From the NCBI RefSeq assembly GCF_022846255.1, contig NZ_AP025682.1: a DNA stretch of 64,000 nucleotides. The stretch is one strand, 5' to 3'. This document shows, piece after piece, positions 9,001 to 15,000 of the stretch. Numbering within the stretch: position 1 is the stretch's first letter; every line of letters begins with the position of its first letter. A program made the position numbers. The DNA is from Escherichia coli (GTDB lineage Bacteria; Pseudomonadota; Gammaproteobacteria; Enterobacterales; Enterobacteriaceae).

Positions 9001-12000
9001 GTATATGAACGACATTACCTTTACTCAGAATGTTTTTCATCGCGGTGAAAAACATCGTATCCCTGGTAATTATAAGAAACATAACCGACTCCTGGTACGG
9101 ACATTAACTTTATAATAAGTTTGCCAAAGGTAATTAACAGGACAGGGCTTATAATAATAGTTAGCTTACTGTGTATTAATTTGATGTAATGCATGATGCA
9201 GATACTGAGAAAGCATCTGCATCTTTCGGTGGTGTTATTTGACCAGCTCAGGTGTTACCTGACTCACCGCATTGGTGTAGTAAGGAGCCCCCCAGCCCGG
9301 TTCCGGCCAGAATGCACCATAGCCGTAATCCCACAAGTTATAGGTGGTATTAACCACTTCTCTCAAATGCCACACCTGGATGCCCTGCATATTCACTTCC
9401 AGGAAGTTATACGGGACTTTATTGATAAAGCCAGGTTGTTCACCCTGAATGGTACCGAGGATGGTAACAAAGTGATTACGATAGTTCACTGGATCAAGGA
9501 AGCCGCTTTGTCTGGCGAGCAGTCGGCCCTGATAGTTGGCTTCAATATCAGGCTTCGCATAGCTATCCAACGGTAATACAGCGATTTCTAACAACGTATC
9601 CGTTTTGCCATTGATAACGTTGATAACCTTCCCGCCAAAGCGCGCTTGTTGACCAACATATAACCCCGGCTGGTTATGAACAGCAACAAAACTTTTTTGA
9701 ATATCAGGTTGGTTATTGCCTTTGATATTTTGCGGAATTGAACTACATGCGGCAAGCAAAAATGAAAGGCTGAGGATGAGTGCACCTTTTGTCATGTTCA
9801 TGTTACTATCCTTATCAACAAATATTAAAACCATAATAGATATTTCTTTATAGTTTTCATCTGATTCTGAGGCGATATGCCTGATAGTAACGTAAACCTG
9901 TCTGATGTTTATATCTCTTCTGTTTAGTTGAGTTCAGTTAATTTTTGGGCGTGGCATGAGTATCCATTGTTCCATAATCTATATTCAGAGGTTTTTAATC
10001 TTTTCGTGTCTAATATTATTTATCTGATTAAGTATTGATTGTGTCTTTTGCGGAAGTGGTGTCGAGCTTATCGTTTCAATGTTATTAATAAGACTTACAA
10101 GTTGAGCCTCAACTTTGAGTAGTCTGCATTTGTATATGTGGTGTTCGTATGGCACGCATTAATTTGTTGGCGTTGTTGCGCTAAATCAAATTGTTCAGAG
10201 GTGTATCCATTCTCCAGAGAATGGGGCATTAATGGGGTGTTGTTCTTCCCGGTTATCACAAGGCCACTTCGGTGTGTCTGGCGTTTTAACATTATCGGTA
10301 TTTGTTGTGCAGTTATAAATATCACCGTTATATGTATTTATTACACCTGGGGTAAAGTCAATTGACATAACATTCCTTATTCATCATTTGTTTTATGCTA
10401 AGATTTTTAAATTGGATAATTAGAACAGGAATGGATTTTCTTCTACATACAGTAAATATAATGCGTCATATCTTCCTGATATAATTACCTTTGACTTCTC
10501 TTTTATTTCCATCTGGTAATATTTGAGTGCAAAAAAAGGCAATAATCATATCGCAAAAGAAAACGTTAACAACTATCGAAAATGCTCGTTTTAAAAAGGT
10601 ATGATGTTCTCTGATAGTGTGTGAAGTGATATTTTTGTGATGTTTTAGATATGTAATAATAAAATAGGTTAACGTATGTTGAAATTATTTATTGTGTAAA
10701 CCACTGATAAATCATAATCCAGTACATCTTTAAACTGCTGCACTGTATCGCTGATAACTAAGCAGCTCACTGATACACCATGCTGGACGCGATAATTGGA
10801 ATCTCACGCAGGGAGTACTGTGTAAATAGCAAAATCGCCTGATACGCTACGACTGTCAGGCCTACAAATAACATACAATTCATCGAATTATCATAACGTT
10901 GTAGGTCGGATAAAACGCGCCAGCGTCGCATCCGACATAAATAAAGCGCATTTTTCTAACAACCTGTGGGGGAATATAGCCGCTTTATTTCAGGCGATTA
11001 CCCGCCTCATCAACCACTTTCTCGCCATCTTCCTTGGTGAACGCGCCTTTTTGCGCATCTGGCAGAATTTCCAGCACGACTTCTGAAGGGCGGCACAGGC
11101 GAGTTCCCAGCGGCGTCACCACAATCGGGCGATTAATCAGAATCGGGTGCTGAAGCATAAAGTCGATTAACTGATCGTGAGTAAATTTATCTTCTGCAAG
11201 GCCCAGTTCCTCATACGGCTCGACGTTTTTACGTAGCAGCGCGCGTACGGTAATCCCCATATCGGCAATGAGTTTTACCAGCTCATCGCGCGTCGGTGGT
11301 GTTTCCAGATAATAGATAATGGTCGGTTCTGTACCGCTGTTGCGGATCATCTCCAGCGTATTACGTGACGTACCGCAGGCCGGGTTGTGATAAATGGTAA
11401 TGTTGCTCATATCAGTATCTCATTACGATGTGAAAGAGAGGTGTAGCGCCAGCGCCACCAGAGTTACAAACCAAAGCGGACAAGTCAAAAACACATATGG
11501 TTTAACGAATATGTAAGTGTAGAGAAAGGTGTAGGTGTGAATTAAGCGTTGGGCATTCATTTGAAAGGAGGTCTGAATCAGGACGTAAAAAAACCGACTT
11601 CGCGTCGGTTTTTTTACTGTTCAGCCCTGAGTTGGTGGCTCTGGCTGGAGTGAGATAGCCATCATCTAACGCATCAATGCTAATACCATACTGAAACTAT
11701 TGCAAGGACATGCTGGTTTTATAACCCGCAAGTACTGTATGATTATCCAGTTGGTTCTGAGACATTTTCACTCTGGCAATGCGCATAAACGCTTTCAAAG
11801 TCCTGGTCTGAAGTACGGGTGGTGCCGTTAACTGATGCTCTGGCCGGAGTGAGATAGTCGTCATCTAACAATGAGACATGCGCCGTGACAGGCAATGGAT
11901 GAGTAAGCGGATGCATTCTCACTCCATCGCATGGAGAAAACGGGTGATTGATAAAGCAATCATCGTTCTTGGGGCGTTAATTGCGCTGCTGGAACTGATC

Positions 12001-15000
12001 CGCTTTCTGCTTCAGCTTCTGAACTGATAGCGGAAACGTAGCTAAGGGCTAAGAGCACACTACTCTTAGCCCTTTAACATTTAACGCATTGTCACGAACT
12101 CTTCTGCCGCTGTCGGGTGAATGGCAACCGTGTTGTCGAAGTCTTTTTTGGTTGCACCCATCTTCAGCGCCACCGCGAAGCCCTGCAACATTTCGTCCAT
12201 ACCAAAACCAATGCCGTGAATACCGACAATCTTCTCTTCCGGTCCAACGCATACCAGTTTCATGCGGCACGGCTGGCGGTGAGTGGTGACGGCGGTATAC
12301 ATCGCGGTGAAAGAGGATTTATACACTTTCACCTGATCGTCGCCGTACTGCTCGCGCGCCTGCGGCTCCGTTAAACCAACAGTACCAATCGGCGGATGGC
12401 TGAAGACCACGGTCGGAATGTTGCTGTAATCCAGATGCTCATCCGGCTTGTTATTAAACAGGCGTTCAGAGAGACGGCGACCTGCTGCAACAGCCACCGG
12501 TGTCAGTTCCACTGCACCCGTGTTATCGCCCACCGCGTAAATACCTTCAACGTTGGTGTTTTGATATTTATCGACGACGATATAACCTTTTTCGTTAGTT
12601 TTAACGCCAGCGGCTTCCAGGTTGATGTTGTCATTGGCAGGCTCGCGACCAATCGCCCAAATCAGGCAATCCACCGTTTCACTGCGACCATCTTCCAGCT
12701 CCAGCGTCAGGCTACCATCGGCATTTTTCACTACCGCTTTCGGGATGGCGTTGGTGTGCAACTGCGGGCCTTCGGCGTTCATCACTTCAACCAGCGTTTC
12801 AGAGATCATCGGGTCGAAGCTGCGCAGCGGCGCATGTTTACGCACAAACAGATGCGTCTTCGCACCGAGGCCGTTAATCACGCCCGCCAGTTCAACGGCG
12901 ATGTAACCCGCGCCAACAACCGCTACACGCTCTGGCAAAGCCGGAAGGGCGAAGAAGCCATCAGAATCAATACCGTATTCCACGCCTGGAATATCCGGGT
13001 GGCTCGGACGACCACCGGTGGCGATCAGAATATGATCGGCCGTGATGGTTTCGCCGTTGACTTCAATGGTTTTGGCATCAACGAAGCGGGCAAAGCCTTT
13101 GATTACATCAACGTTATTTTTACCGAGCACGTTCTCATAGGAAGTATGAATACGGTCGATATAGGCGGTACGGCTGGCGATCAACGTTTCCCAGTTGAAT
13201 TTATTGATAGTGGTATCAAAACCATAATCCGGGCCGTACATATGGATCGCTTCACGGATTTGCGCCGCGTGCCACATCACTTTTTTCGGCACACAGCCAA
13301 CATTTACGCAGGTGCCGCCCAGCTCTTTGGCTTCAATCAGTGCGCATTTCTGGCCGTACATAGCCGCGCGGTTGATGGAGGCGATACCGCCGCTGCCGCC
13401 GCCGATGGCGATGTAATCATAGTGTTTAGTCATGACATATTGTCCTTATCGTTGATTACCGCGATTGTAGCGCGAGACGTAATAGGTGCCAGCAATGGCT
13501 GCAATTACTCTGGCACGATCCAGCTTACGGTGGCGTGCCCGGTGCCTGCCGGAACCAGTTTGCTGTGCAGCCACGGCAGCACGTTATTCATCTGCTGTTC
13601 CAGCTTCCATGGCGGGTTAATCACAATCATGCCGGAAGCGGTCATGCCACGGCGATCGCTGTCTGGCAGCACCGCCAGTTCAATTTGCAGAATTTTGCGA
13701 ATGCCGGTCGCTTCCAGGTCGTGGATCATGCGCTTAATTTGCTGGCGCAGCACCACTGGATACCACAATGCGTAAGTGCCAGTGGCGAAACGTTTGTAAC
13801 CTTCTGCTATCCCGCTGACCACCGCCTGATAGTCGGTTTTCATTTCATACGGCGGGTCGATAAGGATTAAACCACGGCGGGAAACCGGCGGCAGCTTGGC
13901 CTTAAGCTGCTGGAAACCGTCGGCTTTTTCGACGCGCGCACGGCTGTCTTTCTGAAATTCAGAACGCAGCAACGGGTAATCGCTCGGGTGCAGTTCGGTC
14001 AGTTGCAGGCTGTCCTGTTCACGCAGTAGCTGGCGAGCAATCAACGGCGAACCGGGGTAATAACGCAACTGCCCGCTACGGTTGAAGTGTTTTACCACAT
14101 TGATGTACGCCTCCAGCTCCGCAGGCAAATCGTCCTGCTGCCAGATACGGGCGATACCTTCGAGATATTCGCCGGTACGCTCGGCATGTTCGCTGCCTAA
14201 CTGATAACGCCCGGCCCCTGCGTGGGTGTCGAGATAGAGAAACGGTTTATCTTTCTCTTTCAGCGACTCAATGATCAGGCTCTGAACGGTATGTTTAAGG
14301 ACGTCGGCGTGGTTGCCAGCGTGAAAGCTGTGGCGATAACTGAGCATGGGTAAAGGTGTTCCGGTAAGTAAAAATCGGCCCGTATTCGGGGCGCACAAAA
14401 GCCTATCAGGACAGTATACCGAAAAGAGGCCGCCGCCGCGAAAGCGTAACGTTTCTCATTGAAATTCACTACACTTAACCCCATGCTACAAACATTATGT
14501 AAAGCGCCTGTTGAGCGCTTCCTTAACCTCTTTAACCAGGACTGCGCTAATGACGAATCCGTTACTGACTCCCTTTGAATTGCCTCCGTTTTCTAAAATT
14601 CTCCCGGAACATGTCGTTCCAGCCGTGACTAAGGCGCTGAACGACTGCCGCGAAAATGTGGAGCGCGTAGTAGCGCAAGGGGCACCGTACACCTGGGAAA
14701 ATCTCTGCCAGCCGTTGGCGGAAGTGGACGATGTGCTGGGGCGTATCTTCTCCCCGGTCAGCCATCTGAACTCGGTGAAAAATAGCCCGGAACTGCGTGA
14801 AGCGTACGAACAAACCCTGCCGCTGCTGTCAGAATACAGCACCTGGGTAGGGCAACATGAAGGGCTGTATAAGGCATATCGCGACCTGCGCGATGGCGAT
14901 CATTACGCCACGCTGAACACGGCGCAGAAAAAAGCGGTTGATAACGCACTGCGCGACTTCGAACTCTCTGGCATCGGTCTGCCGAAAGAGAAACAGCAGC

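What the first reader, a model, noticed from the sequence alone, without database searches (positions are those of the whole stretch)
11639..12075. dinQ toxin ORF with two agr-like repeats and a LexA-box-like site
A 27-aa hydrophobic ORF (the recalled DinQ peptide) lies convergent with gor. Upstream are two 32-bp direct repeats (28/32 identical) containing ggagtgaga, complementary to tctcactcc in the dinQ leader, and a CTGT-N8-CCAG site between them. This is consistent with the dinQ/agrAB type I toxin-antitoxin-like arrangement. The strand of the agr transcripts cannot be decided from sequence alone.
Basis: partly seen in the sequence, partly recalled or inferred. Interest (0 to 1): 0.4.

Follow-up and report, generated by a model that had tools for sequence, protein, structure and literature searches.

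The report
dinQ toxin with one agr antitoxin

Summary
The locus is the known dinQ/agr type I toxin-antitoxin module (NCBIfam DinQ equivalog; Rfam AgrB 91.5 bits), 100% identical to E. coli O127:H6 E2348/69.

The repeats are not agrA and agrB. Alignment with K-12 shows that a 231-bp unit is absent, so there is one agr gene (11669->11588, minus strand, ending in its own terminator). The proximal repeat is nt 88-120 of the dinQ mRNA, the site agr pairs with. GGAGTGAGA/TCTCACTCC is the published intramolecular "sequence 2:3" switch that controls the ribosome-binding site. The agr strand can be decided from sequence.

One nuance: the single agr is 31/32 identical to K-12's non-functional agrA, but this strain's dinQ target has changed to match it (-57 kcal/mol, equal to K-12 agrB:dinQ). 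Across 24 loci an 8-nt target segment is hypervariable and tracks one agr copy, usually the proximal one. The system is already known, so interest is low. The allele switching appears undescribed but minor.

The parts
11585..11617 (-). Rho-independent terminator of agr (14-bp stem GTAAAAAAACCGAC/GTCGGTTTTTTTAC, 5-nt loop)
   Evidence: the repeat finder I1. It matches the terminator stem of the Rfam AgrB model.
11588..11669 (-). The single agr antisense RNA gene (82 nt). Its position and sequence are those of K-12 agrA, it belongs to the Rfam AgrB family, and it is the predicted cognate antitoxin in this strain.
   Evidence: RF02891 scores 91.5 bits against a gathering score of 40, and it is the only such hit in the 64 kb. 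The ends are placed by alignment to the annotated K-12 agrA. It is 31/32 identical to K-12 agrA and 27/32 to agrB over nt 1-32.
11638..11669 (-). agr nt 1-32, the region that pairs with dinQ mRNA (distal copy of the direct repeat)
   Evidence: 29 Watson-Crick plus 2 G-U pairs of 32 with the dinQ target; duplexfold -57.2 kcal/mol.
11677..11705 (-). Inferred agr promoter (-35 TTGCAA 11705->11700, 17-nt spacer, -10 TAGCAT 11682->11677, +1 at 11669)
   Evidence: Read directly from the sequence. It is identical to the region upstream of K-12 agrA, whose start was mapped by primer extension. The hexamer assignment is my inference.
11733..11752 (+). LexA operator of dinQ (TACTGTATGATTATCCAGTT), overlapping the -10 (TATGAT, 11738-11743) and +1
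   Evidence: Identical to the K-12 operator, for which a heterology index of 4.83 is published. It is conserved in all 23 intact loci examined, with one A->G variant.
11750..12080 (+). dinQ primary transcript (+1 to +331), placed by homology to the K-12 mapping
   Evidence: Setting the published SD G184-G187 at 11933-11936 puts +1 at G11750. U16-C28, U44 and the GUG then fall on the expected bases.
11765..11777 (+). Sequence 1 (U16-C28, UUUUCACUCUGGC), the lock strand that pairs with sequence 2 in the +1 transcript
   Evidence: Identical to K-12. RNAfold pairs 17-28 with 94-105.
11793..11793 (+). Position equivalent to the +44 processing site (U44)
   Evidence: By homology only. Not testable here.
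11837..11869 (+). agr target site in the dinQ 5' UTR (G88-C120), the proximal copy of the direct repeat. It contains sequence 2 (11843-11855) and the hypervariable octamer TAGTCGTC (11855-11862).
   Evidence: The octamer is variable at 8/8 positions against 35/323 elsewhere in the mRNA.
11916..11927 (+). Sequence 3 (U167-U178, UUCUCACUCCAU), which pairs either with sequence 2 or with the SD
   Evidence: Identical to K-12. It pairs with 97-105 in the +44 fold and with 182-187 in the +1 fold.
11931..11936 (+). Sequence 4 (AUGGAG) with the Shine-Dalgarno GGAG (11933-11936)
11944..12027 (+). dinQ coding sequence, GTG start, 27 aa plus stop
   Evidence: NCBIfam NF041472 toxin_DinQ equivalog, 54 bits against a cutoff of 30. 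Annotated as dinQ, WP_001295215.1, in RefSeq genomes. The GTG start and 27-aa product were shown experimentally in K-12.
12044..12080 (+). dinQ terminator (12-bp stem AAGGGCTAAGAG/CTCTTAGCCCTT, then TTTAACATTT), abutting the gor stop codon
   Evidence: the repeat finder I2. Identical to K-12.

Best explanation
The region 11585-12080 is the chromosomal dinQ/agr type I toxin-antitoxin module of E. coli, in a one-antitoxin layout.

dinQ (plus strand) is transcribed from a promoter covered by a LexA operator, so it is induced by DNA damage. The 331-nt primary transcript is translationally inert: its 5' end (sequence 1) pairs with sequence 2 (GCCGGAGUGAGAU), which leaves sequence 3 (UUCUCACUCCAU) free to sequester the Shine-Dalgarno GGAG in a hairpin. 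Removal of the first 43 nt frees sequence 2 to pair with sequence 3, which opens the ribosome-binding site. The 27-aa inner-membrane peptide DinQ is then made; it depolarises the membrane.

The single agr RNA is transcribed constitutively from the minus strand, 80 bp upstream and divergently. Its first 32 nt pair with dinQ nt 88-119, which contains sequence 2. This pairing restores the SD hairpin and creates an RNase III substrate, so translation is blocked.

The two 'repeats' are therefore the antitoxin's pairing region and its target. They appear as direct repeats in the DNA because the two genes are divergent.

Shown here: the anatomy, the family memberships, the complementarity and the +1 fold. 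Inferred from K-12 experiments on near-identical sequence: transcription start sites, +44 processing, LexA binding, toxicity and RNase III cleavage.
For: - Peptide: identical to DinQ; NF041472 equivalog, 54 bits.
- Antisense RNA: Rfam AgrB 91.5 bits on the minus strand, the only hit in the window.
- Alignment to the annotated K-12 dinQ-agrA-agrB locus: colinear, 94-100% identical, one 231-bp agr unit absent, proximal repeat inside dinQ.
- Published anatomy and mechanism.
- Sequences 1, 3 and 4 are identical to K-12, and sequence 2 differs at one base.
- RNAfold of this strain's +1 RNA gives the 1:2 lock plus the 3:4 SD hairpin. The +44 RNA gives the 2:3 helix. Masking nt 88-119 restores the SD hairpin.
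- agr:target duplex: 29 WC + 2 GU of 32, -57.2 kcal/mol, against -57.8 for K-12 agrB:dinQ and -42.3 for K-12 agrA:dinQ.
- The LexA box is identical to K-12's and conserved in 23/23 intact loci.
- The locus is 100% identical to E2348/69, where dinQ is annotated.
Against: - There are no expression data for this strain. Start sites, processing and LexA binding are transferred from K-12.
- The single agr is 31/32 identical in its pairing region to K-12 agrA, which is inactive against K-12 dinQ. Its activity here rests on predicted pairing with a changed target.
- Thermodynamic folding did not reproduce an open SD in the +44 form. In the window's +44 MFE the SD pairs with C89-U92, and K-12's +44 MFE also departs from its own SHAPE model. 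The calculation therefore supports the competing helices but not the accessibility change itself.
- The weaker second LexA operator reported for K-12 could not be located or checked.
Confidence: 0.93

Rival explanations
1. One reading: both repeats are agr genes (agrA and agrB) lying upstream of dinQ, and their GGAGTGAGA pairs with TCTCACTCC in the dinQ leader.
For: K-12 does have two agr genes, and both repeats contain the same core. The proximal repeat gives a weak AgrB hit on the minus strand, 22.3 bits, E = 0.56.
Against: - The proximal repeat aligns to K-12 dinQ nt 88-120, not to an agr gene. The K-12 agrB unit (231 bp) is simply absent.
- The 22.3-bit hit is below the gathering score of 40. 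Similarity between the copies stops at the 33-mer, so neither the agr promoter nor the terminator is duplicated.
- agr is a minus-strand RNA and therefore contains UCUCACUCC, the same sense as the dinQ element. It cannot pair with that element.
Confidence: 0.02
2. The single agr is an agrA-type relic that, as in K-12, does not control dinQ. In this strain dinQ would then be held in check only by LexA and the 5' lock.
For: It is 31/32 identical to K-12 agrA over the pairing region and sits at the agrA position. K-12 agrA does not inhibit dinQ translation or toxicity.
Against: - This strain's target differs from K-12's at 4 bases, and all of the changes improve pairing with the agrA-type RNA: 29 WC + 2 GU, -57.2 kcal/mol, the same as the functional K-12 pair.
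- The same target/proximal-agr match is found in E. albertii, E. whittamii and other E. coli.
- Matched partners beat permuted partners in 2000/2000 permutations.
- Losing the only antitoxin of an intact toxin gene would be expected to be deleterious (agrB mutant phenotype).
Confidence: 0.05

Closest known systems
E. coli K-12 dinQ-agrAB locus (Weel-Sneve 2013, PMC3567139; Kristiansen 2016, PMC5066626)
   Same: - Same chromosomal site next to gor.
- Identical DinQ peptide, SD, GTG start, LexA operator and terminator.
- Sequences 1, 3 and 4 of the RNA switch are identical.
- A divergent, non-overlapping antisense RNA whose 5' ~32 nt pair with dinQ nt 88-119.
   Different: - One agr gene instead of two (231 bp absent).
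- The retained gene is agrA-like in sequence and position, yet it is the well-matched partner, because the target octamer is TAGTCGTC here and GAGTTCTT in K-12.
- arsR and arsB, which flank the K-12 locus, are deleted here.
Plasmid and chromosomal dql (dinQ-like) loci, e.g. agrB-dqlB of IncX3 pOXA-484 (PMC12317039), and the DinQ/AgrB family in T1TAdb (PMC8594479)
   Same: A one-toxin, one-antisense-RNA layout. BLAST against Rfam predicted an agrB locus but no agrA there. T1TAdb notes that AgrA is present only in some strains.
   Different: Those toxins are only about 41% identical to DinQ and sit on mobile elements. This locus is the orthologous chromosomal dinQ.
tisB/istR-1 (SOS-induced type I TA of E. 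coli)
   Same: LexA-repressed toxin mRNA; an inert primary transcript activated by 5' processing (+42 there, +44 here); a divergent, constitutively made antisense RNA that blocks translation and triggers RNase III cleavage; a small membrane-depolarising peptide.
   Different: There is no sequence relationship. IstR-1 competes with a standby ribosome, whereas agr acts by refolding the leader so that the SD is sequestered.

Membership tests
DinQ/AgrB type I toxin-antitoxin family | Toxin is a small hydrophobic single-helix peptide of the DinQ family | tested here: met
   NF041472 toxin_DinQ (equivalog) scores 54 bits against a cutoff of 30. The 27-aa sequence is identical to K-12 DinQ. There is no Pfam model.
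DinQ/AgrB type I toxin-antitoxin family | Antisense RNA of the AgrB family (sequence plus structure, with its own terminator) | tested here: met
   RF02891 scores 91.5 bits against a gathering score of 40, covering the full-length model 1-84 on the minus strand 11669->11585.
DinQ/AgrB type I toxin-antitoxin family | The asRNA gene lies 5' of the toxin mRNA, is divergent from it and does not overlap it | tested here: met
   agr +1 is at 11669 (minus strand) and dinQ +1 at 11750 (plus strand), leaving an 80-bp gap that holds both promoters and the LexA box. T1TAdb states this layout criterion.
DinQ/AgrB type I toxin-antitoxin family | Extended complementarity between the asRNA 5' end and the toxin 5' UTR (about 31-34 nt in K-12; at least 15 nt in T1TAdb) | tested here: met
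   29 WC + 2 GU of 32, -57.2 kcal/mol.
DinQ/AgrB type I toxin-antitoxin family | Four-element leader switch (1:2 and 3:4 in the +1 form, 2:3 in the +44 form) controlling SD access | tested here: inconclusive
   All four elements are present, with 1, 3 and 4 identical to K-12 and 2 differing at G106U. The +1 fold reproduces 1:2 plus 3:4, the +44 fold gives 2:3, and masking the target restores 3:4. However, predicted SD accessibility in +44 does not rise, and K-12's +44 MFE also departs from its own SHAPE model.
DinQ/AgrB type I toxin-antitoxin family | Toxicity of the peptide, neutralisation by the asRNA, +44 processing and RNase III cleavage | not testable with these tools
   Known only from K-12 and plasmid dqlB experiments.
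K-12-type dinQ-agrA-agrB arrangement (two tandem agr paralogues) | Two agr genes 231 bp apart, with the distal one (agrB) cognate | tested here: not met
   One agr only. The K-12 agrA-agrB spacer is present in 3842 of 5426 complete E. coli genomes and is absent here.
SOS (LexA) regulon | LexA operator (CTG-N10-CAG, TACTGTAT-type) overlapping the promoter | tested here: met
   TACTGTATGATTATCCAGTT at 11733-11752 spans -17 to +3. It is identical to the K-12 dinQ operator with published HI 4.83. LexA binding itself is not testable here.

The most novel reading that the evidence does not exclude
The dinQ/agr module exists as several 'specificity alleles'. An 8-nt segment of the dinQ target (nt 106-113) is hypervariable across Escherichia and always matches one agr copy. 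The matching copy is the proximal ('agrA') one in most lineages, including this window, E. albertii and E. whittamii, and the distal ('agrB') one in K-12-like strains. On this reading K-12 agrA would not be a degenerate duplicate. It would be the former, probably ancestral, cognate antitoxin, orphaned when the dinQ target switched to the agrB type. Short gene conversion between the direct repeats is a plausible route for that switch. I found no paper describing this.
Probability: 0.5. Interest if true: 0.35.

Novelty: already known. Interest (0 to 1): 0.15.

Why it matters
The finding itself adds nothing new. dinQ/agr is an experimentally characterised SOS-induced type I toxin-antitoxin system, dinQ is annotated at this position in the matching RefSeq genomes, and the agr RNA is recognised by Rfam.

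The practical value is a correction. In sequence-only reading, the target site inside a toxin mRNA looks like a second copy of the antitoxin gene, so counting repeats overestimates the number of sRNA genes.

The side observation matters modestly for people working on type I TA systems. The antitoxin/target pair has diverged into matched alleles, and the K-12 labels 'agrA = non-functional, agrB = antitoxin' do not transfer by position or sequence to other lineages. About 15% of complete genomes, including Nissle 1917 and O25b:H4, carry a 199-bp deletion that removes the promoters of both genes.

Tried and rejected
1. The consensus promoter/terminator scan of 11400-12150 found neither the agr nor the dinQ promoter and neither terminator, because the A/T-rich stems and imperfect hexamers fall outside its rules. 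I relied on homology to mapped K-12 sites and on the repeat finder instead.
2. Pfam has no DinQ model.
3. I looked for three-way covariation (5' lock strand, target, agr). The lock strand nt 1-28 is nearly invariant and S1 stays at -25 to -37 kcal/mol whatever the target allele, so covariation is confined to target and agr.
4. RNAfold was used to test SD opening in the +44 form. It was not informative, because K-12's own +44 MFE disagrees with the published SHAPE structure.
5. The LexA pattern search with shuffles is circular, since the pattern was derived from the site, so it carries little weight. Identity to the K-12 operator is the real evidence.
6. The motif scan of one genome per species returned only Escherichia loci plus one chance hit in a Bacteroidetes MAG (L013). 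It did not reach the more divergent dql genes.
7. My synthetic ATGCCATT query carried a flank mismatch, so that allele's count (about 1815) is taken from the 95-99% identity band rather than from exact matches.
8. I could not decide whether the one-agr state is ancestral or a secondary loss. The outgroups disagree (E. albertii has one, E. whittamii has two), and an unequal crossover within the identical 3' halves of agrA and agrB would leave no scar.
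Full report
**1.

The window between arsC (10985-11410, minus) and gor (12081-13433, minus) contains a GTG-initiated ORF at 11944-12027 (+) that encodes VIDKAIIVLGALIALLELIRFLLQLLN.

The repeat finder reports one direct-repeat family, 11638-11670 and 11837-11869. It is 33 nt long, 30/33 identical, with 199-bp spacing. The best 33-mer match in 200 shuffles of the region was 24/33.

GGAGTGAGA lies in both copies. TCTCACTCC occurs once in the 64 kb, at 11917. The only CTG-N10-CAG between the repeats is TACTGTATGATTATCCAGTT at 11733-11752.

**2. Identity of the locus**

- The peptide matches the NCBIfam equivalog model toxin_DinQ (NF041472), 54 bits against a cutoff of 30.
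- Rfam's AgrB model (RF02891) matches 11669->11585 on the minus strand over its full length, at 91.5 bits against a gathering score of 40. The plus strand scores 26.6 bits and the proximal repeat 22.3 bits. It is the only AgrB hit in the whole window.
- The 541 bp at 11560-12100 are 100% identical to E. coli O127:H6 E2348/69. dinQ is annotated there, and homologous sequence is found in 5,422 of 5,426 complete E. coli genomes.

**3. The repeats are not agrA and agrB**

K-12 MG1655 annotates dinQ, agrA and agrB, with agrA starting 275 bp and agrB 506 bp from the dinQ start codon. In the window, the distal repeat ends 275 bp from the dinQ GTG and the proximal one only 75 bp.

A global alignment of the two loci is colinear and 94-100% identical apart from the hypervariable target octamer. 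The exception is one 231-bp unit that K-12 has and the window lacks, running from one agr terminator to the next. The window therefore has one agr gene.

The proximal repeat aligns to what Weel-Sneve et al. call the 'agrAB repeat of dinQ', the segment of dinQ mRNA that is antisense to the agr RNAs. K-12 has three copies of this repeat and the window has two.

The similarity between the window's two copies ends exactly at the 33-mer. The proximal copy has neither the agr promoter nor the terminator.

**4. Anatomy in window coordinates**

Setting the published SD G184-G187 at 11933-11936 places dinQ +1 at G11750. All published landmarks then fall on the right bases:

| Element | Published numbering | Window coordinates |
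|---|---|---|
| Sequence 1 (UUUUCACUCUGGC) | U16-C28 | 11765-11777 |
| Processing site | U44 | 11793 |
| agr target | G88-A119 | 11837-11868 |
| Sequence 2 | G94-G106 | 11843-11855 |
| Sequence 3 | U167-U178 | 11916-11927 |
| Sequence 4 (SD) | A182-G187 | 11931-11936 |
| GUG start | | 11944 |
| Terminator | | 12044-12074 |
| Transcript end | about +331 | about 12080 |

The LexA box covers -17 to +3 and overlaps a TATGAT -10 hexamer at 11738-11743.

agr runs 11669->11588, ending in the 14-bp-stem terminator at 11585-11617. Upstream on the minus strand are TTGCAA, a 17-nt spacer and TAGCAT. That region is identical to the one upstream of K-12 agrA, whose start site was mapped experimentally.

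**5. What the GGAGTGAGA/TCTCACTCC complementarity is**

Because agr is a minus-strand RNA, it carries UCUCACUCC. That is the same sense as the dinQ element, so the two cannot pair.

The published model has three states:

- In the +1 RNA, sequence 1 holds sequence 2, and sequence 3 sequesters the SD.
- After removal of 43 nt, sequence 2 takes sequence 3 and the SD opens.
- agr binding to nt 88-119 takes sequence 2 away again, the SD hairpin re-forms, and the duplex is cut by RNase III.

Folding this strain's RNA gave the following:

- The +1 form gives the 1:2 lock (17-28 with 94-105) and the 3:4 SD hairpin.
- The +44 form gives 2:3 (97-105 with 168-176).
- Masking 88-119 restores the 3:4 hairpin.

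There is a caveat. The +44 MFE also pairs the SD with C89-U92, and K-12's +44 MFE departs from its own SHAPE model. The calculation therefore supports the competing helices but not the change in accessibility.

**6. Is the single agr a working antitoxin?**

Over nt 1-32 it is 31/32 identical to K-12 agrA and 27/32 to agrB. K-12 agrA is experimentally inactive on K-12 dinQ.

This strain's dinQ target differs from K-12's, GAUAGUCGUCAUC against GAGAGUUCUUAUC. With that target the single agr forms 29 WC + 2 GU pairs of 32. The predicted duplex energies are:

| Pair | Energy (kcal/mol) |
|---|---|
| Window agr : window dinQ | -57.2 |
| K-12 agrB : K-12 dinQ | -57.8 |
| K-12 agrA : K-12 dinQ | -42.3 |
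| K-12 agrB : window dinQ | -41.3 |

I therefore predict that it is the cognate antitoxin in this strain. This is an inference from pairing, not a demonstration.

**7. Wider sampling**

I compared 26 loci: the window, K-12, 17 further complete E. coli genomes taken mostly from 'spread' rankings, 3 other Escherichia species, 2 E. coli-named species representatives and 2 MAG contigs.

- In 24 dinQ mRNAs of identical length, positions 106-113 vary at 8/8 sites against 35/323 elsewhere (Fisher p = 4e-8).
- Four target classes occur: TAGTCGTC, GAGTTCTT, ATGCCATT/ATACCATT and ATGCCCAC.
- Every intact, fully sampled locus has one agr copy that pairs at -50 to -65 kcal/mol. Where a second copy exists it usually pairs at -36 to -50; E. 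whittamii is the exception, with both copies near -56.5.
- The well-matched copy is the proximal one in 16 loci, including E. albertii, the window and O157/O111/O104 strains (in E. whittamii the two copies tie). It is the distal one in 6 (K-12, B, LH13-b, YDC107 and two others).
- The mean best energy with a locus's own partners is -55.3, against -50.3 for permuted partners, and 0 of 2000 permutations reached the observed value. This test is not phylogeny-corrected.
- The 5' lock strand does not co-vary.

Among 5,426 complete genomes:

| Feature | Genomes |
|---|---|
| K-12 agrA-agrB spacer present | 3,842 |
| Exact window target allele | 363 |
| Exact K-12 target allele | 1,672 |
| ATGCCATT class | about 1,815 |

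**8. What is already known**

T1TAdb states that AgrA is present only in some strains and chooses the most stable partner. Plasmid dqlB loci with a single agrB have been validated as TA systems. I found no paper describing the hypervariable octamer or the switch of the cognate copy. Absence from this library is weak evidence that it is undescribed.

**9. Verdict**

The finding is a correct recognition of a known locus with one mis-assigned component. The system is already known, so interest is low. The allele-switching pattern is a minor, probably undescribed, population-level feature of a known system.

Noticed in passing
window 11411-11585 (junction about 11472/11473): arsR and most of arsB are deleted relative to K-12 (1,686 bp, K-12 locus L001 2991-4676). 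The ars promoter/operator remnant now sits directly upstream of the last 49 nt of arsB and an intact arsC (10985-11410, minus strand). 232 complete genomes match the query spanning this junction at >=99% identity. arsC may be expressed without ArsR control, and the strain lacks the arsenite pump.
   Followed up: partly
L004 (E. coli SSGNw2) 939-970; H131 Nissle 1917, H132 O25b:H4: A 199-bp deletion allele, formed by recombination between the agr repeat and the dinQ target repeat. It leaves one hybrid repeat and removes the LexA box and both the dinQ and agr promoters, while the dinQ ORF stays intact. The junction is present in 807 of 5,426 complete E. coli genomes. This is a way of silencing toxin and antitoxin at once.
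   Followed up: partly
window 11855-11862 and 11645-11652; loci L001-L026: There is a hypervariable octamer in the dinQ target (nt 106-113) with matching variation in agr nt 7-14. The cognate copy is proximal in most lineages and distal in K-12-like ones. In many genomes (O104:H4, HR12-1, E69) it is the distal GAG(T/C)TCTT copy that is the mismatched 'orphan'.
   Followed up: yes
window 11845 (dinQ C96) versus 11646 (agr): Nearly every target/agr pair keeps one C-A mismatch at dinQ C96: the target has C and the agr DNA copy has T. C96 pairs with G26 in the 5' lock, which may explain why the target keeps C. Why agr does not compensate is unexplained.
   Followed up: no
window 11743-11922 (minus strand): A 59-aa ORF lies antisense to the dinQ leader. 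PGAP annotates the equivalent as a 57-aa 'hypothetical protein' (WP_001297979.1, WP_001296816.1) in some genomes. It is probably a spurious call over a non-coding leader.
   Followed up: no
L007 (ETEC L7_E1373) 1758-3214: An IS200/IS605 element (tnpB plus a frameshifted tnpA) sits where dinQ should be. Both agr copies and the LexA box remain, but the dinQ start was not found.
   Followed up: no
window 5407-5438 (+) and 58598-58676 (+): There are two Rfam hits above gathering score: the shuA/chuA 5' UTR thermoregulator (60.1 bits), which implies the chu haem-uptake locus is in the window, and naRNA4/CssrE (65.2 bits), a REP-derived nucleoid-associated RNA. A partial naRNA4-like REP hairpin also lies at 10905-10937 (minus strand).
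   Followed up: no
window 11712-11727: CTGGTTTTATAACCCG is a candidate for the weak second LexA operator reported for K-12 (HI 13.82, position not given in the text). K-12 has CCTG where the window has CCCG, so if this is the site it is further from consensus here.
   Followed up: no
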